Assembly: GCA_046758745.1 (NCBI GenBank)
Contig: JBHIAV010000060.1
Location: 1 to 14,294 of the forward strand
DNA: 14,294 nucleotides
Reading direction: 5' to 3'
Origin: Gemmatimonadota bacterium
Lineage (GTDB): Bacteria; Gemmatimonadota; Gemmatimonadetes; Palauibacterales; Palauibacteraceae
The translations under genes were made by a program, and so were the position numbers. This document shows positions 815 through 14,228 of the stretch, piece after piece; positions within the stretch are counted from its first letter, which is position 1, and each line of letters starts with the position of its first letter. The notes under the pieces are model-generated. The model saw only the letters and a program-made list of their open reading frames with translations, was not told the origin of the DNA and made no database searches.

Positions 815-3800
815 CTAGTCGGCCGGAACGAGCGCCATCTCATCTCGCAAGGCCTCACGGACGGCCTCCTCGGGCCGGCGTCGCACCTGCCACTGGCGCC
901 ACAGGAGGTAGATCGCGGGTATGACGGCCAAGGTGAGCCCGGAACCTGACAACATTCCTCCCACCATCGGCGAGGCGATCCGCTTCATCACATCCGCCCC
1001 GGTTCCGCTGCTCCAGAGGATCGGAGCCAGACCAGCTGTGATCGCCGCGAAGGTCATCACGACCGGCCGAAGCCTGTCCAGAGCGCCCTCGCGCACGGCC
1101 TCGGCCACGTCGGATGCCGTCCGCATCCGGCCTTCTAGGCTCCGGCGGTGGAACGATTCGTCCAGGTAGATCAGCATCACAACGCCCGTCTCCGCGACCA
1201 CGCCGGCCAGGGCGATGAACCCCACCCAGACGGCGACGCTGGTGTTGTAACCCAGCAGCCATAGGAACCACACGCCACCCACCAGCGAGAACGGGAGCGT
1301 GAGCATGACGATGAGAGACTCGAAGACCCCGCGGAAGTTGAAATAGAGCAGCAGAAAGATGATGCCCAGCGTGACGGGCAGGACGATACGCAGCTTCTGC
1401 GTCACCCGCTGCATGAACTCGTACTGTCCGCTCCAGGTTAGGGTGTAGCCGGGCGGCAGGCTCAGCTGCTCGGCGACCACCCGCTTGGCCTCGTCCACGT
1501 AACCACCCACGTCGCGACCTGTGATGTCCACGAACACGATCGTGACGGGAAAGGCATTCTCGGTCTTCACGGCCATCGGCCCCTGGAGAGGCTCGATCCG
1601 CGCCACCTGGCCCAGGGGAATCTGGGCGCCGCTCGGCGCGGGAATAATCACCTCGCGCAGCTTCTCAATGTCGTCGCGAAGCTCGCGGGGGTATCGCACG
1701 TTCACCGCGTAGCGCTCCCGTCCCTCCACGGTGATTGTCGCGTTTATGCCGCCGACCGTGGCCATGATGGCGCTGTGGATATCGCCCACGTTGAGGCCGT
1801 ACCTGGAGGCTTCTTCGCGGTCGATGTTTATGTCGACGTAATAGCCCGACACGCCTCGCTCTGCGAAGACGCTCCGCGTTCCCGGTACCTGCTGCATGAT
1901 CCGTTCGACCTGCTCTCCCAATGCTTGCAGGGTGTCCAGATCGGGACCGAATATCTTGATTCCCACCGGGGTGCGGATACCGGTGGCGAGCATGTCGATG
2001 CGGCCCTTGATCGGCATCGTCCAGGAGTTCGTCACTCCCGGCAACGCCACCTCCCGGTCCATTTCCGCGATCAAGCGCTCGTACGTCATGCCCGGCCGCC
2101 ACTTCTCCTTCCGTTTGAGCGTGATCGTGGTCTCCAACATGTCGAGGGGGGCGGGGTCGGTGGCGGTCCCTGCTCGGCCCGCCTTCCCGAGCACCGTCTC
2201 CACCTCCGGGAAGGAAGCGAGCACGCTGTCCTGGTAGCGCATGATCTCCCTCACCTGCGCGATGGAGACGCCTGGTACCGTCGACGGCATGAAGAGCAGG
2301 GATCCCTCCTTCAGGGGCGGCATGAACTCGCTCCCGAGGCGTTGCCAGGGAAAGACGGTCCCCGCCAGGATGACCCCAGCTGCGGCGATGACCAACCAAG
2401 GCTGCCGCAGCACGAAGTCGATGACCGGACGGTAGGCGCGGCGCAGCGCGCGGTTCACGGGGTTCTGCGCCTCCGGCCGGACCCGCCCCCGCACAAGATA
2501 GCCCATGAGCACCGGAACGAGCGTGATGGCCAGCAGCGCCGATCCCCCCATGGCGAACGTCTTGGTGTACGCCAGGGGCTTGAAGAGACGACCCTCTTGC
2601 TGCTCCAGGGCGAAGACGGGCAGGAAGCTGAACGTGATGATGAGAATGGAGAAGAAGAGCGGGGCCCCCACCTGCTTGGCACTCTCGTACACGATCTCCC
2701 AGCGGGACGTTTCCCCGTCGGCGCGCTCCAGGTGCTTGTGCATGTTCTCGATCATCACGATCGCGCCGGGAATCATGGCGCCGATGGCGATCGCGATCCC
2801 GCCCAGGCTCATGATGTTCGCGCCTACGCCGATCACTCGCATCACGATGAAGGAGATCAGGATGCCGAGCGGAAGCGTGATGATGGCCACCAGCGCCGAG
2901 CGGAAGTGCAGCAGGAAGATCACCGCGACAATCGCGACGATCGAGGACTCCTCGAAGAGCTTGTGCGTCAGGGTTTCAATCGCCTGATCGATCAGGTCGC
3001 CGCGGTCATAGGCTGGCCGCAGCCGGGTTCCGGGCGGGAGACCCTCCTGGATCTCGACCAGCCGCTCCCTGATGGCCTTGATCGTCTTCAGCGCATCGGT
3101 GCCGAAGCGCATCACCACGATACCCGCCACCACCTCGCCCCGCCCGTCGAGGTCGGCCGCGCCGCGCCGGGGCGCCGGCCCGATCTGGACCGTGGCCACG
3201 TCGCCGACTCGGATCGGAGTCCCGTTGGGGGTCGCTCCGACTGCCACGTTCTCGATGTCCTCTATGCCTTTGAAGTATCCGAGACCGCGGATCATGTACT
3301 CGCGCCCGCCCATCTCCAGCACTCGCGCCCCGATGTCGATGTTGTGGGCGCCGATCGCCTGCGCCACGCGGGTTACCGGGATGTTGAAGGCCCGGAGCCG
3401 CTCCGGATTCACTTCGACCTGGTACTGCTTCACGAAGCCACCCAGGCTCGCCACCTCGGAGACGCCGGGGACGGCCGTGAGCTGGTAACGGATGTACCAG
3501 TCCTGGAGCGTGCGCAGTTCCGACAGATCCAGGCTGTCCGACTCCAGCACGTATTCGTAGACCCAGCCGACCCCGGTGGCGTCCGGACCGAGGGTGGGCT
3601 CGACCCCGGGCGGGAGCTGCTGTCGGATGCCGTTCAGATACTCCAGGACGCGGGAGCGGGCCCAGTAGATGTCGGTCCCGTCCTCGAAAATCACATACAC
3701 CAGGCTGAGCCCGAAGAAGGAGTAGCCGCGCACGACACTCGCTCCAGGAACCTTGAGCATCTCCGAGGCGATGGGATACGTGACCTGGTCCTCGACGATG

Positions 3801-3976
3801 TCCGGCGCCTGCTCGCGGAAGTCCGTCTGGACGATGACCTGGACGTCAGAGAGGTCCGGAATCGCGTCGAGGGGAGTGCGGCTGATTGCTATCAAGCCGC
3901 CACCGACCACCGCGACGGTCGCAAGGAGAACGAGGAACCGGTTCTGGAGCGACCAGGCGATGATCCGGTTAATCAT
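815..3976 (-). CDS. cusA: CusA/SilA-type heavy-metal efflux RND permease (Cu(I)/Ag(I) type) with altered proton-relay residues
   Basis: 1053 aa with signatures DAIPDLSDVQVIV, GPDATGVGWVYEY, NIMSLGGIAIAIG, EGRLFKPLAYTKT and GSEFMP. Met triad M563/M613/M662 corresponds to E. coli M573/M623/M672. ATGA overlap with cusB at 3973-3976. Confidence 0.97.
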   Translation of the reverse strand: MINRIIAWSLQNRFLVLLATVAVVGGGLIAISRTPLDAIPDLSDVQVIVQTDFREQAPDIVEDQVTYPIASEMLKVPGASVVRGYSFFGLSLVYVIFEDGTDIYWARSRVLEYLNGIRQQLPPGVEPTLGPDATGVGWVYEYVLESDSLDLSELRTLQDWYIRYQLTAVPGVSEVASLGGFVKQYQVEVNPERLRAFNIPVTRVAQAIGAHNIDIGARVLEMGGREYMIRGLGYFKGIEDIENVAVGATPNGTPIRVGDVATVQIGPAPRRGAADLDGRGEVVAGIVVMRFGTDALKTIKAIRERLVEIQEGLPPGTRLRPAYDRGDLIDQAIETLTHKLFEESSIVAIVAVIFLLHFRSALVAIITLPLGILISFIVMRVIGVGANIMSLGGIAIAIGAMIPGAIVMIENMHKHLERADGETSRWEIVYESAKQVGAPLFFSILIITFSFLPVFALEQQEGRLFKPLAYTKTFAMGGSALLAITLVPVLMGYLVRGRVRPEAQNPVNRALRRAYRPVIDFVLRQPWLVIAAAGVILAGTVFPWQRLGSEFMPPLKEGSLLFMPSTVPGVSIAQVREIMRYQDSVLASFPEVETVLGKAGRAGTATDPAPLDMLETTITLKRKEKWRPGMTYERLIAEMDREVALPGVTNSWTMPIKGRIDMLATGIRTPVGIKIFGPDLDTLQALGEQVERIMQQVPGTRSVFAERGVSGYYVDINIDREEASRYGLNVGDIHSAIMATVGGINATITVEGRERYAVNVRYPRELRDDIEKLREVIIPAPSGAQIPLGQVARIEPLQGPMAVKTENAFPVTIVFVDITGRDVGGYVDEAKRVVAEQLSLPPGYTLTWSGQYEFMQRVTQKLRIVLPVTLGIIFLLLYFNFRGVFESLIVMLTLPFSLVGGVWFLWLLGYNTSVAVWVGFIALAGVVAETGVVMLIYLDESFHRRSLEGRMRTASDVAEAVREGALDRLRPVVMTFAAITAGLAPILWSSGTGADVMKRIASPMVGGMLSGSGLTLAVIPAIYLLWRQWQVRRRPEEAVREALRDEMALVPAD

Positions 3977-5226
3977 CGTCGGGCTCCCCCCGAACTGGTG
4001 TCCCGCGCCGAGGGTCGGTCCTCCGAATCCCCGGCGGAGCCGCTGCCCACGTGCTGCATCCCCACCATCTCGCCACCCGTTCCGGCCAGCCGGGACTCGG
4101 CGTCGACCAGGAAGTTGGCGGAGGCCACGATCGTCTCCCCCTCGGACACTCCTTGGAGGATGTGTACGCGGCCTCCCGCGCGGGACCCGAGGACGACCTC
4201 CCGGGGAACCAACATGCCCTCCTCGTCTCGGAGAAAGACCACGTTCCGCTCACCGGTCACGACGACGGCCTCGAGGGGAACCGTCACTCCATCGGCGATC
4301 GCCTGCACGTCGAAGAAGACTGTCGCGAACATTCCCGGCTTCAACCGCAGATCCGGATTCGGCACGCTGACGCGCACCCGGTTCGTCCGGCTCTTCACGT
4401 CGACGGTCGGGTACACGAAGCTCACGGTTCCCATCACGTGCTCGCCCGGATACGCAGCCAACTCGATGTGGGACCGGGATCCTTCCCGCACGAACTGCAG
4501 ATCCTGCTCGAACAGCTCGCCCTCGACCCAGACCATCGAGAGGTCCGCGATCCGGTACAGACGCATCCCGGGCATCACACGCTGGCCCTCCCACACGTCC
4601 TTCTCCAGGACGATGCCGCTCGCCGGCGCGACCAGGGTGAGCGTCTTCATCACCTCCCCGGTGCTCTCCAGTCGATCGATCTGCTCGGAGGTGATATCCC
4701 AGTATCTCAGTCGGCGCCGGGCCGCTTCGAGCATGTCTCCGGCGCTAGCCCAGGCCTCGCCCGCCGTCGGATCAACTTGCGAGACGAGACGCTTGGCGGT
4801 GAGTAGCTCCTCCTGGGCGGCTACGAGCATGGGGCTGTACAGGGAGAGGAGCGGCTGTCCCTTCCCCACGGTCTCCCCGGTGGTATTCACATACAGCCGC
4901 TCCACGAATCCGCTGATCTTAAGGGTGACATCGGAGACATCGGGTTCCGGTGCCACGACAAAACCGACCGTGCGAATCGTCCGCATGAGGGTCTCGCGGC
5001 GGGCCGTCGTGTAGATCACACCGAGCGCTTGCTCCTGCGCGGGGGTGAGGTGCACGGGCCGGCGGATCGCCGCCCCCGTGCTGTCCATCGCCCCCTGCGT
5101 GCCACCGGCCTGCATCCGGGCATGTTCCTCGGCCGTCATGCCGAGCGTGTCTGAACTTCCTTCGTCCGGTCCGCAGGCCACGAGGAGAACCGCAGTCAGC
5201 AGCAGGGCGGCCGCTCGCACCTTCAT
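3973..5226 (-). CDS. cusB: CusB-type RND periplasmic adaptor (membrane fusion protein), lipoprotein
   Basis: 417 aa with lipobox LVAC (Cys18), YSPMLVAAQEE hairpin, IADLSMVWVEG, LKPGMFATV and ANFLVDAESRL. Met/His-rich termini. ATGA overlaps with both neighbours. Confidence 0.95.
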   Translation of the reverse strand: MKVRAAALLLTAVLLVACGPDEGSSDTLGMTAEEHARMQAGGTQGAMDSTGAAIRRPVHLTPAQEQALGVIYTTARRETLMRTIRTVGFVVAPEPDVSDVTLKISGFVERLYVNTTGETVGKGQPLLSLYSPMLVAAQEELLTAKRLVSQVDPTAGEAWASAGDMLEAARRRLRYWDITSEQIDRLESTGEVMKTLTLVAPASGIVLEKDVWEGQRVMPGMRLYRIADLSMVWVEGELFEQDLQFVREGSRSHIELAAYPGEHVMGTVSFVYPTVDVKSRTNRVRVSVPNPDLRLKPGMFATVFFDVQAIADGVTVPLEAVVVTGERNVVFLRDEEGMLVPREVVLGSRAGGRVHILQGVSEGETIVASANFLVDAESRLAGTGGEMVGMQHVGSGSAGDSEDRPSARDTSSGGARR

Positions 5227-6530
5227 CTGACACCTCCCGGGTCGGCGCCGACAAGCGCCTCCACCTGCGCAAGAGCGCGCTGGTAGTCGGCGGCGAGGCG
5301 CACGCGATCGATCTCGTATCGGTTCACAGTCATCTCGTTCTGTACCAGCGTCATGAAATCCACCCTCCCAACCCGGTAGGCAGAGAGCGCCGATTCTACG
5401 GCAGCCCGAGCCTGTGGCAGCACCGAGGTCGCGTAGAGTTGCGTGAGGTTCCGGGCTCGTTCCGCCTCTGCCCTGAGCTCGGTGATCCGCGCGTAGGTCT
5501 CGTTATAGAGGTCGATTTCCCTGGCCTCCTCCATGCTCAGCGTGGCGCTCATCTGACGGCGAAGCGGGAGCTGGCGTGAGCCTGCCCACACTGGAATGCT
5601 GACCCCCAGCATCAGGGTGAGGAAGTCATCGAACTGCGGACGCTGTCCATAGCCGAGGGTGACCGTGAGATCGGGATAGAGGGCTCGTCGAGCCGCCTTG
5701 TAGCCGGCTTCCGCCGCCTGCGCCCGCGCTCGGGCGGCGCGCAGGGCGGGACGCCGCCGGGCGGCCAGGGCCATCAGCGAGTCCACCGGCGGCAGGTCGC
5801 CCGCCGGCACCGGCAGTTCGAGGGCTCCGACCGGCGCGGTGGCCTGGCGGCCGAGAAGCGCGTTGAGTCGGGCGGCCATCGCCAGGCGATCCTGCTCCAT
5901 CACGGTGATCTCCTCGGTCATCTGGGCGACCGACACCTGGGCCTGGAGAACATCCTGCTGAAGGCCAGTCCCCACGCTGTACATGGTAGAGGACACATCG
6001 AGGAATTCGCGTAGCAGCTGCCGCGTGTCCTCCAGGATCCCGAGGGCGCGGTCCACGTAGGCCAGCCCGTAATAGACGGACTTGACGCCGGCGACGAGCG
6101 ATACCCCGGACTCCTCCGCCTCCAGCTCCGCCGCCTGGGCGAGGTACCGTGCCCGCTCCTCGGCGAACCCCAGCTTGCCCGGCCACGGGAAGCGCTGCGT
6201 GAGCTGCACGCTGTTCATCGTCATGGATTGGTCGGTCCTCCCCAGGTCCACGACCGGCCGATTCAGGAAACCGAAGGAGAGCTGCGGGTCGGGGAGCGCG
6301 CCGGCCTGGGGAATTCGCTCAATCGCAGCGTCCGCGCGAAGGCGGACCGCCTGCAAGAGCGGATTCGCCTCCCGAGCGAGCGCGACTGCATCCTCGAGGG
6401 TGAGGGTGTCTGCAGCCTGCTGGGCGAACGTCGGGCGCGAGAAGGCCAGGAGCGCCGTCGCGAGAGGAGGCATGCACACCCACCTCATCGGTAGCCCACT
6501 AATCGCTGGTGTGGCAAGATGATTCCCCAT
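5223..6530 (-). CDS. TolC-family outer membrane efflux protein (CusC role)
   Basis: Signal peptide ending TFA-QQ, LTLEDAVALAREANP, LPDPQLSFG, QRFPWPGK, YPDLTV and AYRVGRVDFMTLV (two OEP repeats). First gene of a C-B-A operon. Start uncertain (ATG 6530 or 6488). Confidence 0.93.
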   Translation of the reverse strand: MGNHLATPAISGLPMRWVCMPPLATALLAFSRPTFAQQAADTLTLEDAVALAREANPLLQAVRLRADAAIERIPQAGALPDPQLSFGFLNRPVVDLGRTDQSMTMNSVQLTQRFPWPGKLGFAEERARYLAQAAELEAEESGVSLVAGVKSVYYGLAYVDRALGILEDTRQLLREFLDVSSTMYSVGTGLQQDVLQAQVSVAQMTEEITVMEQDRLAMAARLNALLGRQATAPVGALELPVPAGDLPPVDSLMALAARRRPALRAARARAQAAEAGYKAARRALYPDLTVTLGYGQRPQFDDFLTLMLGVSIPVWAGSRQLPLRRQMSATLSMEEAREIDLYNETYARITELRAEAERARNLTQLYATSVLPQARAAVESALSAYRVGRVDFMTLVQNEMTVNRYEIDRVRLAADYQRALAQVEALVGADPGGVR

Positions 6531-6661: not shown

Positions 6662-6715
6662 AATGTGAGTTGGGCGGGCTTAAGATTCCCCTAAGTCGCC
6701 TCTAAGATTTCTTAG
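6662..6715 (-). promoter_or_regulatory. Putative response-regulator boxes and -10 element for the tolC-cusB-cusA-PII operon
   Basis: TAAG recurs at 6681, 6692 and 6703 (11-bp period: TTAAGATTCCC/CTAAGTCGCCT/CTAAGATTTCT). On the minus strand the proximal box ATCTTAA is followed 12 nt later by CACATT (6667-6662). Same geometry as 10570-10631. Confidence 0.65.
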
Positions 6716-6880: not shown

Positions 6881-7738
6881 TCAGTTGATGCGCGGGTTCG
6901 GGTACGACGGCACCGTGACGAGGCCCGGAATCCCGAACACCCGGGAGAAGCCGACAATGAGTTCGACGTTGCCTCGCCCCCGCTCCCACTCGTCGAGCCG
7001 CGTGGCAAGCCCGAAATCGAGTACGCTCAGGTTCGTCAGCTGCCAGCGGGACCCCAGCTCCAGCCAGACGCGGCTGCGGCCTGAACCGTTCGGCACCTCG
7101 GCGTAGATGTCCCCCATGATCGCCCTGCTGAACAGGCCGATCGGATAGTCGAACGCCATGCCCCCCAGCCAGAAGTCGCCGCCGTCGGCCGCGCTCGCTG
7201 CCGCGTAGCCGCCGTTCAGGTGGATGCGAAGGCGCCCGAAGGACCGGGTCGCGAGGCCCTTCCCCGAGATCGCCCAATTCTCCCTTCCGAGTCTCCCGGC
7301 TCCCGGACTCTCCACATCCAAACGCGCGGCGAACGCAGGCCAGCTCCAGGTCTCGCGGTTGAAGTTGTACAGGAGGTGCGCGCCAGCGCTCTCGATCCCC
7401 CCTGCCGTGCTTCCCTCGGCGTCCTCCCCTCCGGCCTTGATCTCCAAGCCTACCTGCCCGTTCAGGAAGAGCCCCGTCTTCAGCTCACCGATCCCGGACA
7501 CGCCGTCTCCACCCTCTCGGAGCGCACCCCGAATCCCCAACTCGACCTCCCACTCCCGGAACTTCACGGGGTACGCGTCCTCGACCTGAATCGGCCGGTC
7601 GAGGTCGGCCGAACGGAAGTCTTCCTGTGCGGTGACCGGTGATACGGATCCGGCGATCGCAGCAAGGCCAGCCGCCACCGGTCCGAGCAGGCCCGCCCGA
7701 AAAGGTCCGGCAGACGCCGAGGCGATTCGATTCTTCAC
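6881..7738 (-). CDS. Putative outer-membrane beta-barrel (porin/transporter-like) protein
   Basis: 285 aa with signal peptide (..VTA-QED) and many alternating amphipathic strands (WEVELGIRG, HLLYNFN, LRIHLNGGY, WLGGMAFDYP, WLELGSRWQL, LDFGLATRL, LIVGFSRVF). GTGA overlap with the upstream gene at 7735-7738. Confidence 0.75.
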   Translation of the reverse strand: MKNRIASASAGPFRAGLLGPVAAGLAAIAGSVSPVTAQEDFRSADLDRPIQVEDAYPVKFREWEVELGIRGALREGGDGVSGIGELKTGLFLNGQVGLEIKAGGEDAEGSTAGGIESAGAHLLYNFNRETWSWPAFAARLDVESPGAGRLGRENWAISGKGLATRSFGRLRIHLNGGYAAASAADGGDFWLGGMAFDYPIGLFSRAIMGDIYAEVPNGSGRSRVWLELGSRWQLTNLSVLDFGLATRLDEWERGRGNVELIVGFSRVFGIPGLVTVPSYPNPRIN

Positions 7739-8865
7739 CGATCCATCCCTTCGTGCCGGGGGTGTGCGGGCACGCTGTCGGTCGGCAGCTTCTCCAGCCG
7801 GACACCCAGCGGCATCCTGAACTCCTCCATCGTGGCCAAGCGCGCGTCGGGATGACCCTGCGGGAGCCAGCTTCCGTCGGGCAGTCGCGTGGGGACACGC
7901 ATGGACCCCTCGCTCATGCTGTGTCCGGTCATCGGCATGCCGGGCGCGGTCACGGCGTCCTGAGCCGCGTAGGTCATGTTCCGACGCATCCTCTCGATCT
8001 CCGCCTCCTTCTCGGCCCGCGAGAGCGAGGCGTCGGCCATGATGTCGTTCACCACGTCATGCATCATGTGGAGGTTGTCGAAGATCTGGGCCGCGGCCGG
8101 CAACATGCGCGAGAAGCGAGGGGCCATCTCGGCCGCCAGGGGCATCACCTTCGGCGGATTCCTCAGCACCGAGTCCTTGAAGACGGCGATGACCCGATTA
8201 AGCTCCTGCCGTCGAGCCTCCGGATCGGGCTCCATGAGCGCCTCGTAGACCGCCGCGTGATGCCAGTGGTACGCCCACAGGATGCCATTGATGCCGGGGT
8301 ATTTCTTGCGAAAGGTGCCGGCCCAGGCGCCGCCTCCCTCCATCCAGCGGTGACCGTATCCGCGCGTGGAAAACGCGGTGTTGGCGCGCGACAGGTAGTA
8401 CGCGATCGCGCGCTCGCCGGCAGTCTTCTTATCCCTCACTCGATCGTCTGTGAGGATGTCGTAGAGCTGGGAGTGGAGCATGTGGGTCCAGTCCATGGCG
8501 CGCCCGGTCTCGAACGCCATCTTCGACCAGTTGGGCGCGATAACCTCGGCGGGTGGCTCGAAGCGCGGCGGATGGTCCAGGTACTCCACGACACGCGCGC
8601 GGAACGTCTCCATCTCCGCCACCGCGTCCTCTCCGCGATTCAAGAGGGTCTCGTACGCTCCGAAGTGCGCGTAATGTGCCGCGTAGAAGGACCGCGCCGC
8701 CTCGTTGTAGGTATCGTAGAACGCGAAGTTGTAGGCGGCGGGAAGCCGGTAGACCTCGTTCCGCTGCGGCGCGCTGCTGCAGGCAGAGAGAAACAGCGCG
8801 GCTCCCAGAAGCGTCACGCGATCAGCGCGGGCCGGGATCACATCCCGGAAAGTCATCTTCTCCAT
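7735..8865 (-). CDS. Uncharacterised His/Met-rich lipoprotein with four HxxH helical repeats; putative metal-binding protein
   Basis: 376 aa with lipobox LSAC (Cys29). HxxH at 64/67, 128/131, 200/203 and 266/269, plus a Met/His-rich tail (GMPMTGHSMSEGSM, HPRHEGM). Translationally coupled to the barrel gene. Confidence 0.85.
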   Translation of the reverse strand: MEKMTFRDVIPARADRVTLLGAALFLSACSSAPQRNEVYRLPAAYNFAFYDTYNEAARSFYAAHYAHFGAYETLLNRGEDAVAEMETFRARVVEYLDHPPRFEPPAEVIAPNWSKMAFETGRAMDWTHMLHSQLYDILTDDRVRDKKTAGERAIAYYLSRANTAFSTRGYGHRWMEGGGAWAGTFRKKYPGINGILWAYHWHHAAVYEALMEPDPEARRQELNRVIAVFKDSVLRNPPKVMPLAAEMAPRFSRMLPAAAQIFDNLHMMHDVVNDIMADASLSRAEKEAEIERMRRNMTYAAQDAVTAPGMPMTGHSMSEGSMRVPTRLPDGSWLPQGHPDARLATMEEFRMPLGVRLEKLPTDSVPAHPRHEGMDR

Positions 8866-8894: not shown

Positions 8895-8939
8895 TCTCTC
8901 TCTCACTCTCTCTCTCTCTCTCTCTCTCTCACTCACTCA
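8895..8939. repeat. (TC/GA)n dinucleotide microsatellite
   Basis: (TC)5-AC-(TC)12-ACTCACTCA on the + strand, filling most of the 71-nt gap between two co-oriented genes and abutting the upstream TGA. Confidence 0.97.
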
Positions 8940-9494
8940 GACGTCTCGACTTCCCAGCGGAAGCAAGCCCAAGCCAAGTCCTCCGGCCAGACCCACCAGG
9001 AGGCCGATCACGCCCCATTCGGCGGCACTCCGGTTGCGTTCGATTCGGATGTCGTCCGCCCGGACCCCTCCATCGCCCACGTCATGGCGGTACGAAGCCC
9101 AACTCTCCGTGGCCAGCTTGTGTTCGTTCTCATCGACGCTCCTGCGGGCCCCCAGCACAGTCAGGTCCAGCGTGGCTACCGCGTCCCCATCGGCGGCAAT
9201 TGCCGTCACCCGGTAGGCTCCAGAGGTGACGCCTAGCGGAATGATCAGTTCGAGCGAGAACCTGCCCGCGGAATCTGACTGCACCTGCCGGAGCTCGTAC
9301 TCGCGCAGCGCCCCCACGAGCCTTAGAAGGTAAGTTTGCTTCTTGCTGAAGTCGCTGCCGTGGAGCTCCAGTACCTCACCCGCCACGACGGACGACTGCG
9401 GGCTCGTCAAGACCGCATCCTCGTGCGAGACGGCCCGCCCTGCCGATGCGAGCAAGAAGCTCAGAAACAGCGTGAGGACCTTTGCCACATTCAT
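8937..9494 (-). CDS. Secreted Ig-like-domain protein with C-terminal membrane anchor and probable mature N-terminal His
   Basis: 185 aa, AAAGGA RBS. Signal peptide ends AVS|HED. Beta-strand-rich core (VVAGEVLELHGSDF, SDSAGRFSLELIIP, GAYRVTAIA) and C-terminal TM WGVIGLLVGLAGGLGLGLL. Starts 18 nt after the cyt b stop. Confidence 0.8.
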   Translation of the reverse strand: MNVAKVLTLFLSFLLASAGRAVSHEDAVLTSPQSSVVAGEVLELHGSDFSKKQTYLLRLVGALREYELRQVQSDSAGRFSLELIIPLGVTSGAYRVTAIAADGDAVATLDLTVLGARRSVDENEHKLATESWASYRHDVGDGGVRADDIRIERNRSAAEWGVIGLLVGLAGGLGLGLLPLGSRDV

Positions 9495-9512
9495 ACTTTG
9501 CCGTCCTTTGGG

Positions 9513-10553
9513 CTACATGCCAAGATGCTGCTGGCGCGCACCAAACGCCCCGTACAGCCAGAGGGCGAGGACCGCGAGCCCGAGCAGGAGCCCCACCCAC
9601 CCCACCCAGCCGTGCCTTCCAGGCCTATCGTCGCCCCCGCGATCCAGGAGCGGGATGGTTGCGAGAAAGCCGAAGAGGATGGCGGGTCCGATAATCATGC
9701 CCCAGGTGCCCAGGAGGTTCTCGAGTCCGTAGACCCAGAGCACCGGCCAGAACGGCTTGGTGACCTCCACACCGGCAACGGCCGGATAGCCCAAGTTTTC
9801 GGGTGCAACGACCGCCAGGAGCCCTATGGTCGCGAAGGCGAGCGATGCGACGCCCGCAAGCCGTATGGCATGTGTCCGAAAGACGCTAGTCTCCGAAGCA
9901 TCGGCGTGAATACCCAGATGGCGGATAAGCCAGAAGTGAAGTCCCATGAGGCCGATGAGAGCGAGCGGCAGGAGGCTCGTGTGAAGGCTGAAGATCCGCG
10001 AGAGCAACGAGGTGCTCCGCGTGAAGCTCTCGGTGAAGAAGGCACCCAGCGCGCCCGTGAGCTCGCCTCCTGTCACGAAATGCGACAGCGCCTCGAATCC
10101 TTCCTGGTCGTTACGCAGTGCTGTGCCAGTCACGATGAGGAGGAAGAGTAGCCCGGCCATTCCGACGCCGGCCCACCAGGTAACCTCACGCGGCTTCTTG
10201 TAGGAGCGTCGCCAAAACACGTAGATGAGGTGTGTCGTGATGGTCACGGTCACCGCGCCCGCGGACCAATAGTGGAGGCTCCGCACCCAGTCCCCGAGCG
10301 GCGCACGAGCGATGATATACAGGACGCTGTCGTGGGCTCCGATCGGGTTTGGATTGTAGAACTGCGCGAGGTAGATGCCGGTGAGCAGAAGGAGAATAAT
10401 GAAGAATGCGGTCAGCCCTCCCAACATGTACGTCCAGCGGTTGGTCACTTTCGGGATGGGATAGTCGAGCGCCTTGAGCGCTGCTCGCTCCGCTAGCCAG
10501 CTGGCGTACGAATCGCTCTCGCCTGCCTCGTCAGCCACGTTCACCCCCGACAT
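9513..10553 (-). CDS. Cytochrome b of the bc1/b6f family (b6 + subunit IV-like fusion, ~7 TM), orphan
   Basis: 346 aa with YMLGG, TGIYLAQFYNP, RSLH94..H108, YKKPREVTWWAG and H191..H206 (four heme ligands, 13/14 spacing). KPFWP sits at the PEWY position. No Rieske or CxxCH protein in the window. Confidence 0.92.
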   Translation of the reverse strand: MSGVNVADEAGESDSYASWLAERAALKALDYPIPKVTNRWTYMLGGLTAFFIILLLLTGIYLAQFYNPNPIGAHDSVLYIIARAPLGDWVRSLHYWSAGAVTVTITTHLIYVFWRRSYKKPREVTWWAGVGMAGLLFLLIVTGTALRNDQEGFEALSHFVTGGELTGALGAFFTESFTRSTSLLSRIFSLHTSLLPLALIGLMGLHFWLIRHLGIHADASETSVFRTHAIRLAGVASLAFATIGLLAVVAPENLGYPAVAGVEVTKPFWPVLWVYGLENLLGTWGMIIGPAILFGFLATIPLLDRGGDDRPGRHGWVGWVGLLLGLAVLALWLYGAFGARQQHLGM

Positions 10554-10569: not shown

Positions 10570-10635
10570 AGCCTAGCCGACTATGGACTAAGATCGCCCC
10601 AACTTCTCGTTAAGATCTCTTTAGAATCTTACAAT
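10570..10635 (-). promoter_or_regulatory. Putative response-regulator boxes and -10 element for the cyt b operon; divergent promoter region
   Basis: CTAAGAT (10588) and TTAAGAT (10610) lie 22 bp apart, with an inverted copy AATCTTA at 10625-10631. On the minus strand the proximal box is followed 12 nt later by TAGGCT (10575-10570). Plus-strand TACAAT at 10630-10635 could serve the regulator gene. Confidence 0.65.
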
Positions 10636-10772
10636 CGCCCTGGAAACCGAAGGAGAGGGTTCTTAGCGGGGCCTCATCGCCTATTTTGGGATCGCAGCGA
10701 GGCAAGATTTTCACCTCCAGAGGACCGGGGAGGAGGATCGATCCGTCCCCCTTTCCGGCTCGGCGTAGGGCC

Positions 10773-11456
10773 ATGAAGATACTTCTCGTCGAAGATGACG
10801 CTCGGGTGGCCCGCTTCATCGAGAAAGGACTGCGGGAGGAGGGTCATGTGGTTGACCTGGCTACCGACGGCGTTGAAGCCGTGGCGCTCGCGCACGTGAC
10901 CGACTACGACGTGATCGTGCTCGACGTGATGCTCCCCGGCAAGAGCGGCTTTCACGTGACCTCCGAGCTTCGCTCCCAAGGCAACCCCACCCCGATCCTC
11001 ATGCTGACGGCCCGGGATTCCCGGGAGGACATCGTGCAGGGCCTCGACGTCGGGGCTGACGACTATCTGACTAAGCCGTTCGACTTCGAGGAGCTGCTAG
11101 CGCGCATCCGCGCGCTCGCCCGGCGCATTGGCGCTATCGACGAGGGCACGCTCCGCTTCCAGGACATCGAGTTGGATCGACTCCAGCACGAAGCGCGGCG
11201 CGGCGGCCAGCGCATCAACCTCACGCCGACCGAGTTCAAACTCCTCGAGGCCCTGATGCGCAAGCCTGGACAGGTGGTGAAGCGCCTCGAGCTCTTGGAT
11301 CGCGTGTGGGGGATGAGCTTCGATCCGGGCACGAACCTGATCGATGTGCACATGGCGAACCTTCGGAAGAAGCTGGAGAAGGAGGGGGGGAGCCGGGTTA
11401 TCTCCACTGTCCGCGGTGTCGGATTCCGGCTGGCGAGCGTAGAAGGCCATGAGTAA
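10773..11456 (+). CDS. OmpR-family response regulator (CusR/CzcR-like)
   Basis: MKILLVEDD..YDVIVLDVMLP..PILMLTAR..GADDYLTKPF receiver domain and LTPTEF..IDVHMANLRKKL..TVRGVGF winged helix. ATG 10773 (227 aa) is preferred over the ORF-track start at 10686. Confidence 0.96.
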   Translation: MKILLVEDDARVARFIEKGLREEGHVVDLATDGVEAVALAHVTDYDVIVLDVMLPGKSGFHVTSELRSQGNPTPILMLTARDSREDIVQGLDVGADDYLTKPFDFEELLARIRALARRIGAIDEGTLRFQDIELDRLQHEARRGGQRINLTPTEFKLLEALMRKPGQVVKRLELLDRVWGMSFDPGTNLIDVHMANLRKKLEKEGGSRVISTVRGVGFRLASVEGHE

Positions 11457-12921
11457 GCTCGGTCGTTCCTTTCGGGGGCGCCTTGCCCTCCGCTTCGGAG
11501 CCACCGTCATGCTGGTCGCCGCCGCAGGCTCCCTCTTCGGTTACCTGGTACTGCGCAGTCTGCTAATCGACCAGCTCGACAGGACGCTTCTGCGTTTGGC
11601 AGGGATCGAGGCAGCTGCCGCCGCCGACACTCCGGACTCCACAGTACATTTCCACGACGAGGTCTTCCTCGCTGTCGGCCCCGGACACAAGGCGATCCTG
11701 AGCCGTTACGCGGAGGTGTGGAGCCTGGAGGGAGAACCGGTCCTGCGAACCGAGAACCTGGCAGGCGGCAATCTTCCGCTCGACGGGGAGGTTCGAAGCC
11801 GCGTCGTCTCTACCGGTGACCCGGAGCTCTTCAGCTTCGAGTGGGGGGGCACCGAATACCGGAGCGTTCTCTACCCCCTGGGTCTGGTGGGTCCGCAGCA
11901 TGAGCCGCATCTGCTTCAGGTGGCCGCTGCCACCGACCAGACAAGGGCTGTGCTCGGCAATTTCTTGAAGGTGTTGGCCGTGCTTGCGTTCCTGGGGGCT
12001 CTGGCGGGTCTAGGATTGGGATGGTGGGTGGCCGGATCCGCCATCCGGCCGGTGATGGAGATCACTCGGCAGGCGGAATCCCTCGAGATGTCGCGGGGCA
12101 AGCACCGGATCATTGCGCAGGCAGAGACCGAGGAGATGAGCCGACTCGTTTCCGTTCTGAACTCCATGCTGGGAAGGATCGATACCGCATTCGAAAGTCA
12201 GCGACGCTTCCTCGCCGATGTCGGACACGAAATCCGCACGCCCCTCACCGTGCTTCGCGGAGATGTCGAGGTTGCCCTCCGCCGGCATCGCTCACTGGAA
12301 GAGTACGAGGCGATCCTGGGACAGACGTTGGAGGATCTCAAGGATGTCTCAGCTCTGGCCGATGACCTCATCACCCTGGCCCGCGGAGAGAGTGGCGCCC
12401 TGACCCCCGAGTTTCGCCCCATCCAAGCGGAGAACCTGCTCCGCGAGGTCGCCGAACGGTACCAGGGAGCCGCCGAGAAAGGGGGAGCCTGCCTCAAGAT
12501 TGGAAGCGACCCATCGGCCGTGGTCGTGGGGGACCGTACGCTGCTCGCGCGGGCCTTGGGCAACCTTGTGGACAACGCCATCAAATACGGAGGCGACGGA
12601 GAGATCACCGTTGGAGCCAGCTTGGCGGACCATGGCAGCGTCGAGATCCGCGTGGCAGATGAGGGCCCCGGAGTCCTGCCAGATGAGCTGCCGCACCTCT
12701 TCGACCGCTTTGTCCGCGGGGAAGCGGGCCGGCGGGTTGGGAGAGGCTCCGGGCTCGGCCTATCAATCGTCAAGGCGATCGTGGAGAGCCATGGCGGAAC
12801 GATCCAAGTGGATAGCGTCGTCGGCCGCGGAACGACTTTTCGGCTCCACCTACCTGCCGTGGCTCACAGGCAAATCCGATCGCGGAAGGTCGATGTCGTG
12901 GGGACCCACTCCGGAGATTAG
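11449..12921 (+). CDS. Sensor histidine kinase (2 TM, periplasmic sensor, HAMP, HisKA, HATPase), heavy-metal-sensor type
   Basis: 490 aa with H-box FLADVGHEIRTPL, N-box NLVDNAIKY, G1 DEGPG, F-box LFDRF and G2 GSGLGL. 8-nt overlap with the regulator. Confidence 0.96.
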   Translation: MSKLGRSFRGRLALRFGATVMLVAAAGSLFGYLVLRSLLIDQLDRTLLRLAGIEAAAAADTPDSTVHFHDEVFLAVGPGHKAILSRYAEVWSLEGEPVLRTENLAGGNLPLDGEVRSRVVSTGDPELFSFEWGGTEYRSVLYPLGLVGPQHEPHLLQVAAATDQTRAVLGNFLKVLAVLAFLGALAGLGLGWWVAGSAIRPVMEITRQAESLEMSRGKHRIIAQAETEEMSRLVSVLNSMLGRIDTAFESQRRFLADVGHEIRTPLTVLRGDVEVALRRHRSLEEYEAILGQTLEDLKDVSALADDLITLARGESGALTPEFRPIQAENLLREVAERYQGAAEKGGACLKIGSDPSAVVVGDRTLLARALGNLVDNAIKYGGDGEITVGASLADHGSVEIRVADEGPGVLPDELPHLFDRFVRGEAGRRVGRGSGLGLSIVKAIVESHGGTIQVDSVVGRGTTFRLHLPAVAHRQIRSRKVDVVGTHSGD

Positions 12922-13619: not shown

Positions 13620-14105
13620 TTAGTGCTCCCGTTCCGATGCCGCGTCGGCCGCCGCACAGAGACGTGTGCAGACATCTCGCAGAGAATGCTGCCATTCACC
13701 CCGCAGGGAGACACCCAGCTCCACACGTCCGGTGGGAATCGCGATTCGGCAATGCGTCACGTGCGGGAGGTCGAGCAGCTCCCTTCTCAGCGCCTCGAGA
13801 CGTCCGGAAGAGCCGACGAGCCAGGTCGTCACGCGCGCCTCGGCCATATGCACCGAATAGCCGCGACGCTCGAGGATCCGTATAACCTCTTCCAACCACG
13901 GTAGGGCGTCGACCTCGATCGACACCGTGTCTCGCATGGGATTGACCGCCGCCCCTCGCACCCCATCCAGCTTCCTCAGAGTCCGCTCGAGCGGTGCTCC
14001 CTCCGACGCACAGCCAAGCTCCGAGATCGTGAGGCAGACTCGGAAGCCGGACGCGCCGGCCACGGCGTACGGCGTTTGCTCTTCAGGGGAACCGGTTTCG
14101 CTCAT
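13620..14105 (-). CDS. Protein with two degenerate HMA (ferredoxin-like) domains
   Basis: GGAGG RBS before ATG 14105. LTISELGCASEGAPLERTLRKLDGVRGAAVNP..GYSV is an HMA domain with CxxE instead of CxxC. The second repeat (LRRELLDLPHVTHCRIAIPTGRVEL) lacks the CxxC loop. Confidence 0.72.
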   Translation of the reverse strand: MSETGSPEEQTPYAVAGASGFRVCLTISELGCASEGAPLERTLRKLDGVRGAAVNPMRDTVSIEVDALPWLEEVIRILERRGYSVHMAEARVTTWLVGSSGRLEALRRELLDLPHVTHCRIAIPTGRVELGVSLRGEWQHSLRDVCTRLCAAADAASEREH

Positions 14106-14228
14106 GCTTCCTCCGGCGCCGGATCCCGCCGACCTGCGATGGGCCTCGTCGCCTCCGGGCAGGTCGCTCTCCGTCCGAAGCACCAGGATCGCCCGTCCCA
14201 GCAGTGCAGCGCTCCTCCCGTGGAACTA

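What the first reader, a model, noticed from the sequence alone, without database searches (positions are those of the whole stretch)
8032..8721. Hidden four-fold repeat in the lipoprotein: aromatic-x14-HxxH-x3-(Y/N)-(D/E)
Seen: F49..H64YAH67FGAYE72; W113..H128MLH131SQLYD136; F185..H200WHH203AAVYE208; F251..H266MMH269DVVND274. The aromatic-to-first-His spacing is exactly 15 in all four. Repeats pair as 1~3 and 2~4 (linkers HPPRFEPPAEVIAPNWSKM vs NPPKVMPLAAEMAPRFSRM), indicating two rounds of duplication. Inference: a pseudo-symmetric helical bundle placing 8 His and 4 carboxylates around a multinuclear metal centre. The spacing differs from the HxxxH/HxxxE of hemerythrin and tyrosinase and from Cys-lined Csp storage proteins, so this may be a new metalloprotein class (storage or oxidase).
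Basis: partly seen in the sequence, partly recalled or inferred. Interest (0 to 1): 0.8.

Follow-up and report, generated by a model that had tools for sequence, protein, structure and literature searches.

The report
Histidine-lined cap on an outer-membrane channel
This lipoprotein belongs to an unstudied family built from four repeats that each carry a conserved pair of histidines, and it probably binds copper and sits on a small outer-membrane channel encoded by the next gene.

Summary
The 376-aa lipoprotein (7735-8865, minus strand) carries four aromatic-x14-HxxH-x3-(Y/N)-(D/E) motifs at the stated residues, and all 16 motif residues are invariant in 36 close homologues. Profile comparison supports a four-fold repeat made by duplicating a two-repeat unit.

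No Pfam, NCBIfam, PDB-sequence or PDB-fold match explains it. The family has at least 386 clusters at 50% identity and is all "hypothetical". It occurs in Gemmatimonadota, Nitrospinota and Nitrospirota.

Family-wide the core is usually (D)xxH / HxxH / Hxx(Q) / HxxH; the eight-His form is a minority. About a quarter of complete members replace the histidines with Arg/Gln/Glu.

New here: the gene is translationally coupled to a 12-stranded FapF/COG4313-like outer-membrane barrel. That barrel is adjacent in at least 67 of 80 related loci and fused in some. A controlled complex prediction places the protein on the barrel's periplasmic mouth (0.83 against 0.00).

Copper genes recur nearby and the tails are Met/His-rich.

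An earlier scan note had flagged the same module in another genome.

The parts
7735..8865 (-). Gene of the 376-aa His-motif lipoprotein (the finding)
   Evidence: ORF. No Pfam or NCBIfam family. 618 homologues, all unnamed. Single copy in its own genome.
8779..8865 (-). Signal peptide and lipobox (residues 1-29, L-S-A-C29)
   Evidence: Sequence read. Cys29 is the only Cys and is invariant in 36 of 36 close homologues. Many distant members have a plain signal peptide instead.
8572..8748 (-). Repeat 1 (residues 40-98): F49, H64-x2-H67, Y71-E72; helices 54-77 and 82-97
   Evidence: Family-wide, position 64 is mostly Asp (57 of 101 covered rows) and 67 is His (81 of 101).
8356..8571 (-). Repeat 2 (residues 99-170): PPxFEPP linker, W113, H128-x2-H131, Y135-D136; helices 118-139 and 146-158
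   Evidence: H128 is His in 93 of 122 rows, H131 in 93 of 121, and D136 is Asp in 119 of 122.
8158..8355 (-). Repeat 3 (residues 171-236): F185, H200-W-H202-H203, Y207-E208; helices 190-209 and 215-233
   Evidence: H200 is His in 108 of 135 rows. Position 203 is Gln in 94, His in 20 and Glu in 16 of 135. Positions 64 and 203 covary as D/Q, H/H and E/E.
7966..8157 (-). Repeat 4 (residues 237-300): PPxxMP linker, F251, H266-x2-H269, N273-D274; helices 256-277 and 283-297
   Evidence: H266 is His in 110 of 122 rows, H269 in 98 of 122, and D274 is Asp in 116 of 121.
7738..7965 (-). C-terminal Met/His-bearing tail (residues 301-376; P308, H315, M317, M322, W333, H338 conserved in the close clade)
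   Evidence: Tails of family members are enriched in Met + His: median 11.3% against 6.9% in the core, for the 77 of 151 representatives with a tail of at least 30 aa.
6881..7738 (-). Partner gene: 285-aa 12-stranded outer-membrane beta-barrel, whose start overlaps the lipoprotein's stop by 4 nt
   Evidence: AF2 pLDDT 86 with 12 strands. Foldseek finds FapF 5o65 at E 2.8e-8 and the COG4313 channel 4rl8 at E 1.7e-6. Adjacent on the same strand in 67 of 80 loci. Fused to the His domain in P0133 and P0142. Complex prediction 0.83 against 0.00.
815..6530 (-). cusC/cusB/cusA-type heavy-metal RND efflux genes downstream (5223-6530 OEP, 3973-5226 adaptor, 815-3976 CusA/CzcA pump)
   Evidence: Pfam and NCBIfam, (TIGR00914 at 1149 bits, cut-off 701).
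8937..10553 (-). Upstream genes on the same strand: 185-aa exported protein with a C-terminal membrane helix (8937-9494) and a b-type cytochrome (9513-10553)
   Evidence: Neither is conserved beside the module elsewhere: orf185 in 0 of 80 loci and the cytochrome b in 1 of 80.
10686..12921 (+). Divergent heavy-metal two-component system (CopR/CusR-type regulator 10686-11456, sensor kinase 11449-12921)
   Evidence: NCBIfam TIGR01387 (245 bits) and TIGR01386 (258 bits) are the best models, both slightly below their cut-offs of 279 and 293. Pfam domains.
10610..10625 (+). Direct hexamer repeat (TTAAGA-N4-TTTAGA), a candidate regulator box in the divergent promoter region
   Evidence: The degenerate pair pattern occurs only here and at 6690-6706. 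The pattern was derived post hoc from these two regions, so the shuffle expectation of 0.075 is not an independent test.
6690..6706 (-). Second copy of the hexamer pair (CTTAGA-N5-CTTAGG) in the 350-nt gap before the cusC-type gene
   Evidence: with the same caveat.

Best explanation
The gene encodes a member of an uncharacterised family of exported all-helical proteins, lipid-anchored in this clade. The family is built from four tandem ~65-residue repeats of the form (R1-R2)x2.

Each repeat is a helix hairpin. Its long first helix carries a core-facing (H/D)xxH pair followed by Y-(E/D). Because the hairpin loops are short (4-6 residues), the four motif helices should run parallel and hold their His pairs at the same depth. 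Together they would form a His-rich, carboxylate-backed metal site or metal path, most likely for copper.

The face formed by the N-terminal ends of these helices, together with the N-terminal segment behind the lipid anchor, docks on the periplasmic mouth of a dedicated 12-stranded outer-membrane channel. That channel is encoded by the translationally coupled downstream gene. The Met/His-bearing tail would collect periplasmic copper.

In this window the pair sits in a minus-strand gene array with cusCBA-type efflux genes, divergent from a heavy-metal two-component system. I therefore read it as an outer-membrane copper-handling gate used in copper detoxification.

Shown: the repeats, their conservation, the lack of any known family, the barrel fold of the partner, and the gene linkage and fusion.
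Predicted by model: the helical fold and the docking.
Inferred: parallel helices, His convergence, copper as the ligand, and the direction of transport.
For: - Motif and repeats.
- Core-facing register: positions -4 and +10 around each HxxH are 87-100% hydrophobic family-wide.
- Equal depth: the helices start at 54, 118, 190 and 256, and the first His lies at 64, 128, 200 and 266. Hairpin loops are 4-6 residues.
- Ligand-like substitutions that covary: positions 64/203 are D/Q in 37, H/H in 8 and E/E in 6 of 72 complete rows.
- Partner barrel: adjacent on the same strand in 67 of 80 loci by tblastn, and 6 more loci carry a divergent homologue. There is a 4-nt overlap here and a fusion in P0133 and P0142.
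- Complex prediction: ipSAE 0.80, 0.83 and 0.85 against a best control of 0.00. That mark was reached by 116 of 157 solved complexes and 2 of 215 mismatched pairs. Runs share at least 56% of their contacts and partner pLDDT is at least 76. The interface is target 29, 32-50, 100-118, 151-159 against the barrel's N-terminal stretch, one set of turns and the C-terminus.
- Copper context: window genes. In 64 loci whose target ORF my crude caller recovered, a copper P-type ATPase (TIGR01511, 587 bits) occurs in 11, CusA-type RND in 8 and a CopC-CopD fusion in 5. The union is 20 of 64.
- Met/His-rich tails, and MDHSKMPGM-type motifs in 4 of 353 held family proteins.
- A small Cys/His-rich ORF lies upstream in 16 close-clade loci.
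Against:
- About 20 of 72 complete family rows lack most of the histidines (Arg/Gln/Glu instead), so the family's core function may not need a metal.
- Copper genes are absent within +-4 ORFs in 44 of 64 loci. The cytochrome b and orf185 of this window are not conserved partners.
- The partner's structural relatives carry hydrophobic molecules (COG4313; abstract seen in the listing) or amyloid subunits (FapF), not metals.
- The coupling analysis gave no usable helix-helix contacts.
- The complex score is a model's confidence obtained with my own alignments, so the calibration counts hold only roughly.
Confidence: 0.5

Rival explanations
1. It is a metalloenzyme rather than a binding or gating protein. 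A dinuclear or multinuclear Cu, Fe or Mn centre in the helical core oxidises a periplasmic substrate, for example Cu(I), Fe(II), Mn(II) or a small organic molecule. Electrons pass to cytochromes.
For: - The His-rich, carboxylate-backed set of ligands on four helices recalls hemerythrin, type-3 copper and ferritin-like centres (recalled chemistry; motif).
- Redox fusions exist: an N-terminal cytochrome c in P0180 and a PQQ-type propeller in P0178.
- A b-type cytochrome is encoded two genes upstream here.
- The family occurs in Nitrospirota, including a Candidatus Manganitrophus genome.
Against: - Redox fusions are rare: 1 cytochrome c and 1 PQQ among the 57 proteins scanned.
- The cytochrome b neighbour is found in only 1 of 80 loci.
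- The one constant partner is a passive-looking 12-stranded barrel, not a redox protein.
- His-free members persist in the family.
Confidence: 0.15
2. It is a non-metal periplasmic cap, plug or chaperone for the barrel. The barrel moves a hydrophobic molecule or a peptide, as COG4313 and FapF channels do. The histidines form a buried hydrogen-bond or pH-sensing network, and the copper genes nearby are a coincidence of island structure.
For: - The partner's fold relatives are FapF and a COG4313 channel.
- About 20 of 72 family rows swap the His residues for Arg/Gln/Glu, as if a polar network were enough.
- 44 of 64 loci have no copper gene within +-4 ORFs.
Against: - Six to eight invariant histidines with covarying Asp/Gln/His/Glu replacements are typical of metal ligands.
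- The tails are Met/His-rich.
- The recurrent non-partner neighbours are almost all copper genes.
- This window is a heavy-metal island.
Confidence: 0.2
3. It binds metal and works with the barrel, but the metal is not copper (zinc, nickel, cobalt, manganese or iron), or the direction is uptake rather than export.
For: - The RND pump matches the generic CusA/CzcA model, which also covers Zn/Co/Cd pumps.
- His and carboxylate ligands suit Zn(II), Ni(II) and Fe(II) as well (recalled chemistry).
- An ABC-3 type metal permease neighbours the gene in 2 loci.
- CopC-CopD neighbours (5 loci) are often discussed as importers (recalled).
Against: - The P-type ATPase neighbour passes the copper-specific model (TIGR01511, 587 bits against a cut-off of 397).
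- CopC-CopD are copper proteins.
- Met-rich tails favour Cu(I) (recalled chemistry).
Confidence: 0.15

Closest known systems
PcoB/CopB outer-membrane copper channel with its His/Met-rich periplasmic N-terminal region (works with PcoA)
   Same: An outer-membrane beta-barrel in a copper-resistance operon is coupled to a periplasmic His/Met-rich element needed for copper efflux (abstract of PMC12509749). The wiring beside two-component and efflux genes is similar.
   Different: Here the periplasmic element is a separate, folded, eight-helix repeat protein, not a disordered extension. The barrel shows no Pfam match at all, CopB family included, and its nearest folds are FapF and COG4313. Neither copper efflux nor binding has been shown here.
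Hemerythrin / HHE cation-binding four-helix bundles
   Same: The helices carry a mostly-histidine ligand set plus carboxylates, and the H-x4-(D/E) spacing from the second His resembles one hemerythrin motif (recalled). The protein has an internal duplication.
   Different: The spacing is HxxH, not HxxxE/HxxxH. There are eight main helices instead of four. There is no Pfam hit and no fold match.
Ferritin-like diiron proteins (E...ExxH x2)
   Same: The ligand motifs have i, i+3 spacing on the helices of a duplicated helical unit. Weak fold rows exist for ferritins: 7vp8 at Z 4.0, rmsd 4.8, 128 aligned, and 7die at Z 3.8.
   Different: His replaces Glu at the first position, and there are four motifs instead of two. 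A Z of 4 is within noise for helical models (note). No sequence match.
Periplasmic copper-binding helical proteins (CopM/DUF305, Csp copper storage)
   Same: These are exported helical proteins in copper homeostasis with metal ligands lining helices (recalled).
   Different: No Pfam match to any family. There is a single Cys, which is the lipid anchor, so it is not Cys-lined like Csp. It is a repeat protein with a barrel partner.
FapF and COG4313 (Pput2725) 12-stranded outer-membrane channels (for the partner gene)
   Same: The partner model has 12 strands plus an N-terminal extension. Foldseek gives E 2.8e-8 (5o65) and 1.7e-6 (4rl8). Fused relatives pass the Phenol_MetA_deg Pfam threshold: P0133 at 25.5 bits and P0142 at 23.3 bits, cut-off 22.
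   Different: The window's own barrel gets no Pfam hit even at E <= 10. Known members are linked to amyloid subunits or hydrophobic molecules, not to a His-lined cap protein or to copper genes.

Membership tests
Bacterial lipoprotein (Lol/Lgt substrate) | Signal peptide ending in a lipobox [LVI][ASTVI][GAS]C | tested here: met
   L-S-A-C29 follows a hydrophobic stretch. Cys29 is invariant in 36 of 36 close homologues. Lipidation itself was not tested.
Hemerythrin / HHE cation-binding domain (PF01814) | Match to the family profile | tested here: not met
   There is no Pfam family at E <= 0.01. At E <= 10 the only row is ANIS5_cation-bd, at 15.8 bits against a cut-off of 29.3.
Hemerythrin / HHE cation-binding domain (PF01814) | H...HxxxE...HxxxH...HxxxxD motif spacing (recalled definition) | tested here: not met
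   All four motifs are HxxH with D/E at +8 from the first His.
Ferritin-like diiron superfamily | Four-helix bundle with E + ExxH on each helix pair; profile or fold match | tested here: inconclusive
   No Pfam or PDB sequence match. The only fold rows are weak: 7vp8 at Z 4.0, rmsd 4.8, 128 aligned.
Type-3 copper (tyrosinase/hemocyanin) | CuA/CuB His motifs and a profile match | tested here: not met
   No Pfam hit. Not listed in the fold searches; that absence alone is not proof.
Csp copper-storage four-helix bundles | Cys-lined bundle core | tested here: not met
   There is one Cys in 376 residues, the lipobox Cys29.
CopM / DUF305 | Match to PF03713 (accession recalled) | tested here: not met
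   No Pfam family for the target. None for the core domain of 57 relatives.
COG4313 / Phenol_MetA_deg / FapF-type barrel (partner gene 6881-7738) | 12-stranded barrel with an N-terminal extension; fold or profile match | tested here: met
   12 strands in the AF2 model, pLDDT 86. Foldseek gives 5o65 at E 2.8e-8 and 4rl8 at E 1.7e-6. The profile match is seen only in fused relatives, not in the window's own protein, so this establishes fold-level membership only.
PcoB/CopB outer-membrane copper protein (partner gene) | Match to the CopB family profile | tested here: not met
   No Pfam or NCBIfam family for orf285.
New family defined here (His-motif repeat protein) | Four repeats, each with F-x14-(H/D)xxH-x3-Y-(E/D) | tested here: met
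New family defined here (His-motif repeat protein) | Adjacent or fused 12-stranded barrel | tested here: met
   There is a 4-nt overlap with orf285. The barrel is adjacent in 67 of 80 loci.
New family defined here (His-motif repeat protein) | Binds metal at the motif histidines | not testable with these tools
   This needs ICP-MS, spectroscopy or a structure.

The most novel reading that the evidence does not exclude
The four parallel motif helices form a single-chain, pseudo-fourfold, histidine-lined conduit: two rings of His, then a ring of Tyr, then a ring of carboxylates. This conduit is bolted onto the periplasmic mouth of a 12-stranded barrel. That would be a new class of outer-membrane metal gate, passing copper between periplasm and outside by ligand exchange. 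It would be independent of the Cus tripartite pump and unrelated to PcoB.
Probability: 0.25. Interest if true: 0.85.

Novelty: new variant of a known kind. Interest (0 to 1): 0.72.

Why it matters
How copper crosses the outer membrane is one of the least understood steps of bacterial copper homeostasis. PcoB/CopB is the only dedicated barrel studied, and its mechanism is still open (abstract of PMC12509749).

This family offers a second, unrelated two-part solution: a folded, repeat-built, histidine-lined protein predicted to cap a small barrel. It is present in a quarter of the sampled Gemmatimonadota genomes and also in Nitrospinota and Nitrospirota. Those groups matter for N2O reduction, nitrite oxidation and manganese oxidation, and they depend on copper enzymes (recalled).

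The protein has no match to any solved fold that stands above noise, so a structure would probably add a new metal-binding architecture. The natural His-to-Arg/Gln/Glu variants provide ready-made controls. The two genes are small and easy to express, so the idea can be tested directly.

Tried and rejected
- **Known families.** Pfam and NCBIfam on the target gave nothing. Pfam at E <= 10 gave only a sub-threshold ANIS5_cation-bd row. PDB sequence searches with the single protein and with the profile gave nothing significant: 0 hits, then E 0.1 and 1.2.
- **Fold searches.** Foldseek against the PDB found no match at E <= 0.001; the best was E 0.5. VIA-align over 48,161 chains gave a best Z of 5.7 (9e03_A, rmsd 4.8, 132 aligned). 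The second look gave a best Z of 5.4. The remaining rows are mostly GPCR-like up-down bundles at Z about 4, which is below the level the tool calls meaningful for helical models.
- **ESM Atlas.** It returned only unnamed clusters from Gemmatimonadota and Nitrospirota.
- **Contact prediction.** Mean-field DCA (Neff about 160-177) was dominated by gap and indel artefacts and said nothing about the packing of the motif helices.
- **Literature.**
  - HxxH / copper / helical bundle found nothing relevant.
  - DUF2231 found one unrelated database paper.
  - Two searches aimed at the CopA/CopB octapeptide found nothing on it.
  - No search found a paper on this family, but the family has no name to search for.
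- **Leader ORF.** The small Cys/His leader ORF seen upstream in relatives was looked for in the window and not found; the best tblastn E was 0.006, in an unrelated place.
- **Heme-binding reading (bis-His).** I considered and dropped this without a test. The paired His are three residues apart on the same helix, and there is no CxxCH.
- **Imelysin-like lipoprotein (two four-helix domains, HxxE).** There is no Pfam hit, and it is not among the fold rows shown. That absence is not proof.
Full report
**The observation**

The minus-strand ORF 7735..8865 encodes a 376-aa protein, and the finding's coordinates 8032-8721 map to residues 49-278. HxxH lies at 64/67, 128/131, 200/203 and 266/269. F49, W113, F185 and F251 each lie exactly 15 residues before the first His. 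A fifth HxxH (368/371) lies in the non-conserved end.

The protein has 15 His and one Cys. That Cys (C29) ends a lipobox, L-S-A-C.

In 200,000 shuffles of the sequence, 243 had four or more HxxH. None had four full motifs, and the maximum was two.

In an alignment of 36 homologues of 60-75% identity, all eight His, the four carboxylates, the four aromatics and C29 are invariant.

**The repeat**

Smith-Waterman scores against shuffles:
- Halves 37-170 against 171-300: z = 12.8.
- R2 against R4: z = 12.6.
- R1 against R3: z = 4.0.
- R1 against R2: z = 3.5.

I then cut a 160-row family alignment into the four repeats and compared them with hhalign. All six pairs align in the same register on F...HxxH...Y(E/D):
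- R2-R4: 99%, E 2e-18.
- R1-R3: 97%, E 5e-11.
- R1-R4: 94%.
- R3-R4: 90%.
- R2-R3: 76%.
- R1-R2: 48%, E 2e-4.
- The two halves: 99.6%, E 2e-24.

The protein is therefore (R1-R2)x2. The recent duplication is certain. The older one is likely.

**No known family explains it**

- Pfam and NCBIfam give nothing for the target. At E <= 10 there is only a sub-threshold row.
- No Pfam model covers the core domain of 57 relatives.
- PDB sequence searches find nothing significant.
- The AF2 model is confident (pLDDT 85.1, pTM 0.81) and all-helical.
- Foldseek finds no PDB match at E <= 0.001.
- VIA-align over 48,161 chains peaks at Z 5.7 (rmsd 4.8, 132 aligned). The other rows are mostly seven-helix up-down bundles at Z about 4. 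The tool itself says such values are not meaningful for helical models.

**Size and range of the family**

- 618 proteins at E <= 1e-3 in the word-indexed search. Every name given is "hypothetical".
- 386 clusters at 50% identity at E <= 1e-3.
- 608 proteins with the profile, named only by their fused domains.

Of the 80 genome loci fetched, most are Gemmatimonadota. Several are Nitrospinota or Nitrospirota, including a Candidatus Manganitrophus genome, and one is labelled Bacteroidetes.

In a sample of the window's phylum, 50 of 201 genomes have a match. This tally includes the unpublished genomes G157 and G057; without them it is 48 of 199. The window's own genome has one copy.

**What the wider family says about the motif**

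Over 160 aligned rows:
- Position 64 is Asp in 57, His in 20 and Glu in 10 of 101 covered rows.
- Position 67 is His in 81 of 101.
- Positions 128 and 131 are His in 93 of 122 and 93 of 121.
- Position 200 is His in 108 of 135.
- Position 203 is Gln in 94, His in 20 and Glu in 16 of 135.
- Positions 266 and 269 are His in 110 and 98 of 122.
- The four carboxylate positions are D/E in 93 of 102, 121 of 122, 131 of 135 and 116 of 121.

Among 72 rows complete at all key columns, positions 64 and 203 covary: D/Q in 37, H/H in 8 and E/E in 6. About 20 rows have replaced most histidines by Arg, Gln or Glu.

The eight-His arrangement is therefore a clade variant of a more common 6 His + Asp + Gln core. 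The positions behave like one coupled set.

**Geometry that can be argued without coordinates**

- Each motif sits in a long helix (54-77, 118-139, 190-209, 256-277) with the first His ten residues in. A 4-6-residue loop and a return helix follow each one. The eight helices therefore alternate up and down, and the four motif helices should be parallel with their His pairs at one level.
- Family-wide, positions -4 and +10 relative to the first His are 87-100% hydrophobic. Position +7 is Tyr in three of the four repeats. His(0) and His(+3) thus occupy consecutive a and d positions of the core stripe.

I could not measure distances, because the tools do not give out coordinates. My coupling analysis was uninformative.

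**The partner gene**

The next gene (6881-7738) starts 4 nt before the target's stop. Its AF2 model (pLDDT 86) has 12 strands and an N-terminal extension. Its best PDB matches are FapF (5o65, E 2.8e-8) and the COG4313 channel (4rl8, E 1.7e-6).

A homologue lies next to the target on the same strand in 67 of 80 loci by tblastn. Six more loci carry a divergent homologue. The order is reversed in the distant clade. In P0133 and P0142 the barrel is fused in front of the His domain.

The controlled complex prediction with my alignments A2 and A3 gave:
- ipSAE 0.80, 0.83 and 0.85 against a best control of 0.00.
- That mark was reached by 116 of 157 solved complexes and 2 of 215 mismatched pairs.
- The runs share at least 56% of their contacts, and partner pLDDT is at least 76.
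- The counts hold only roughly, because my own alignments were used.

The interface is target residues 29, 32-50, 61, 65, 100-118, 151-159, 167, 257 and 303. These are the N-terminal segment behind the lipid anchor and the end of the bundle where the motif helices begin. On the barrel it is residues 56-62, the turns at 89-93, 125-135, 166-169, 199-204 and 233-237, and the C-terminus 267-280. That is the end of the barrel carrying both termini, taken to be periplasmic. This orientation agrees with the fusion order and with a lipid anchor in the outer membrane.

**Why copper**

In the window the pair lies on the minus strand between two gene sets:
- Upstream: a b-type cytochrome and a 185-aa exported protein.
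- Downstream: OEP, CusB-type adaptor and CusA/CzcA-type pump.

It is divergent from a heavy-metal two-component system, and an HMA-domain gene lies nearby.

Elsewhere, I looked at the 64 loci in which my crude ORF caller recovered the target (16 loci were dropped). The recurrent neighbours within four ORFs are:
- A P-type ATPase that passes the copper model (TIGR01511, 587 bits, cut-off 397), in 11 loci.
- CusA-type RND, in 8 loci.
- OEP in 6 loci and a CusB-type adaptor in 5.
- A CopC-CopD fusion, in 5 loci and directly downstream in 4.

The ATPase, RND and CopC-CopD together cover 20 of 64 loci. The other recurrent clusters are unrelated housekeeping genes.

Further pointers:
- Sixteen close-clade loci have a small Cys/His-rich ORF just upstream. 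The window lacks it.
- Tails after the domain are enriched in Met + His: median 11.3% against 6.9% in the core, for 77 of 151 representatives with a tail. Twenty are at 15% or more.
- Four of 353 held family proteins carry an MDHSKMPGM-type motif. It resembles the octapeptide repeats I recall from Pseudomonas syringae CopA/CopB; I found no paper for this in the library.
- 14 of 57 relatives give sub-threshold matches to the Met/Gly-rich STI1 DP model.

Against copper:
- 44 of 64 loci show no copper gene nearby.
- The His-free members exist.
- The barrel's structural relatives are not metal channels.

**Reading**

I commit to the following at about 0.5. This is a histidine-lined, probably copper-binding, periplasmic cap protein of a dedicated outer-membrane channel, used here in copper detoxification together with cusCBA.

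The closest functional precedent is PcoB, an outer-membrane barrel whose His/Met-rich periplasmic region is needed for copper efflux (abstract only, PMC12509749). Neither protein here belongs to that family.

Rivals:
- A redox metalloenzyme. Rare cytochrome c and PQQ fusions exist, and there is a cytochrome b here.
- A non-metal cap for another cargo.
- Another metal, or uptake instead of export.

My results agree with it and add the four-fold repeat, the family-wide ligand pattern, the barrel fold and the docking prediction.

**Novelty**

The family, its fold (as far as PDB searches can tell) and its motif are undescribed. The general kind is known: a periplasmic metal-handling protein working with an outer-membrane barrel in copper operons. 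I therefore file it as a new variant of a known kind. The bolder reading, a new class of single-chain His-lined gate, is kept at about 0.25.

Noticed in passing
window 8937-9494 (-): A 185-aa protein with a signal peptide and a C-terminal membrane helix. A His (H24) lies close after the likely cleavage region. It has no Pfam or NCBIfam family. The topology recalls membrane-anchored copper-binding proteins such as YcnI or CopC (recalled, not tested). It is not found beside the module in any of 80 related loci.
   Followed up: partly
window 9513-10553 (-): A b-type cytochrome (Cytochrome_B, 3.6e-22; best NCBIfam row ExtP-like, below cut-off) heads the same-strand gene array in front of a heavy-metal efflux cluster. 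It is a neighbour of the module in only 1 of 80 loci (L041).
   Followed up: partly
window 10610-10625 (+) and 6690-6706 (-): Pairs of TTAAGA-like hexamers about one helical turn apart occur only in the two intergenic regions: upstream of the cytochrome/module unit (and the divergent regulator) and upstream of the cusC-type gene. They are candidate response-regulator boxes. The pattern was defined post hoc from these two regions.
   Followed up: partly
window 13620-14183 (-): A 187-aa protein with an HMA domain (E 3.1e-6, 27.9 bits). The usual metal-binding loop holds only one Cys (…LGCASEG…) instead of a CxxC pair, so it looks like a degenerate or atypical HMA.
   Followed up: no
L001, L003, L006, L008-L014, L018 (about 70-85 nt upstream of the target) and L015, L019-L022: A small (~108-150 aa) exported Cys/His-rich ORF with a conserved C-terminal PPPR end lies directly upstream of the His-motif gene in 16 close-clade loci. 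It has no Pfam family and is absent from this window. An earlier scan note compared it with CutF-like leaders.
   Followed up: partly
family proteins P0131, P0189, P0331, P0350, P0351; P0130, P0153, P0305, P0327; P0180; P0178: The His-motif domain is fused several times to the membrane domain DUF2231 and to SnoaL-like/DUF4440 domains. It is fused once each to a cytochrome c and to a PQQ-type beta-propeller. DUF2231 has no literature in the library.
   Followed up: partly
family alignment, rows such as E-R-E-R-Q-D...R-L-E-E-H-Q-D: A subgroup (about 20 of 72 complete rows) replaces His67, His128 and His200 by Arg and the other motif His by Gln/Glu. It keeps D136, E208, D274 and mostly H266. This looks like a salt-bridge network standing in for a metal site. 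I did not check whether these members keep the barrel partner.
   Followed up: no
partner barrels, mature N-terminus (window orf285 residues ~38-62): All barrel homologues share a strongly conserved acidic N-terminal segment right after the signal peptide (…D-x-x-R-P-x-x-x-E-D-A-Y-P…). D40, D54 and A55 are invariant in 29 sequences. Part of it (residues 56-62) lies in the predicted interface. It may be a plug or the contact to the cap.
   Followed up: no
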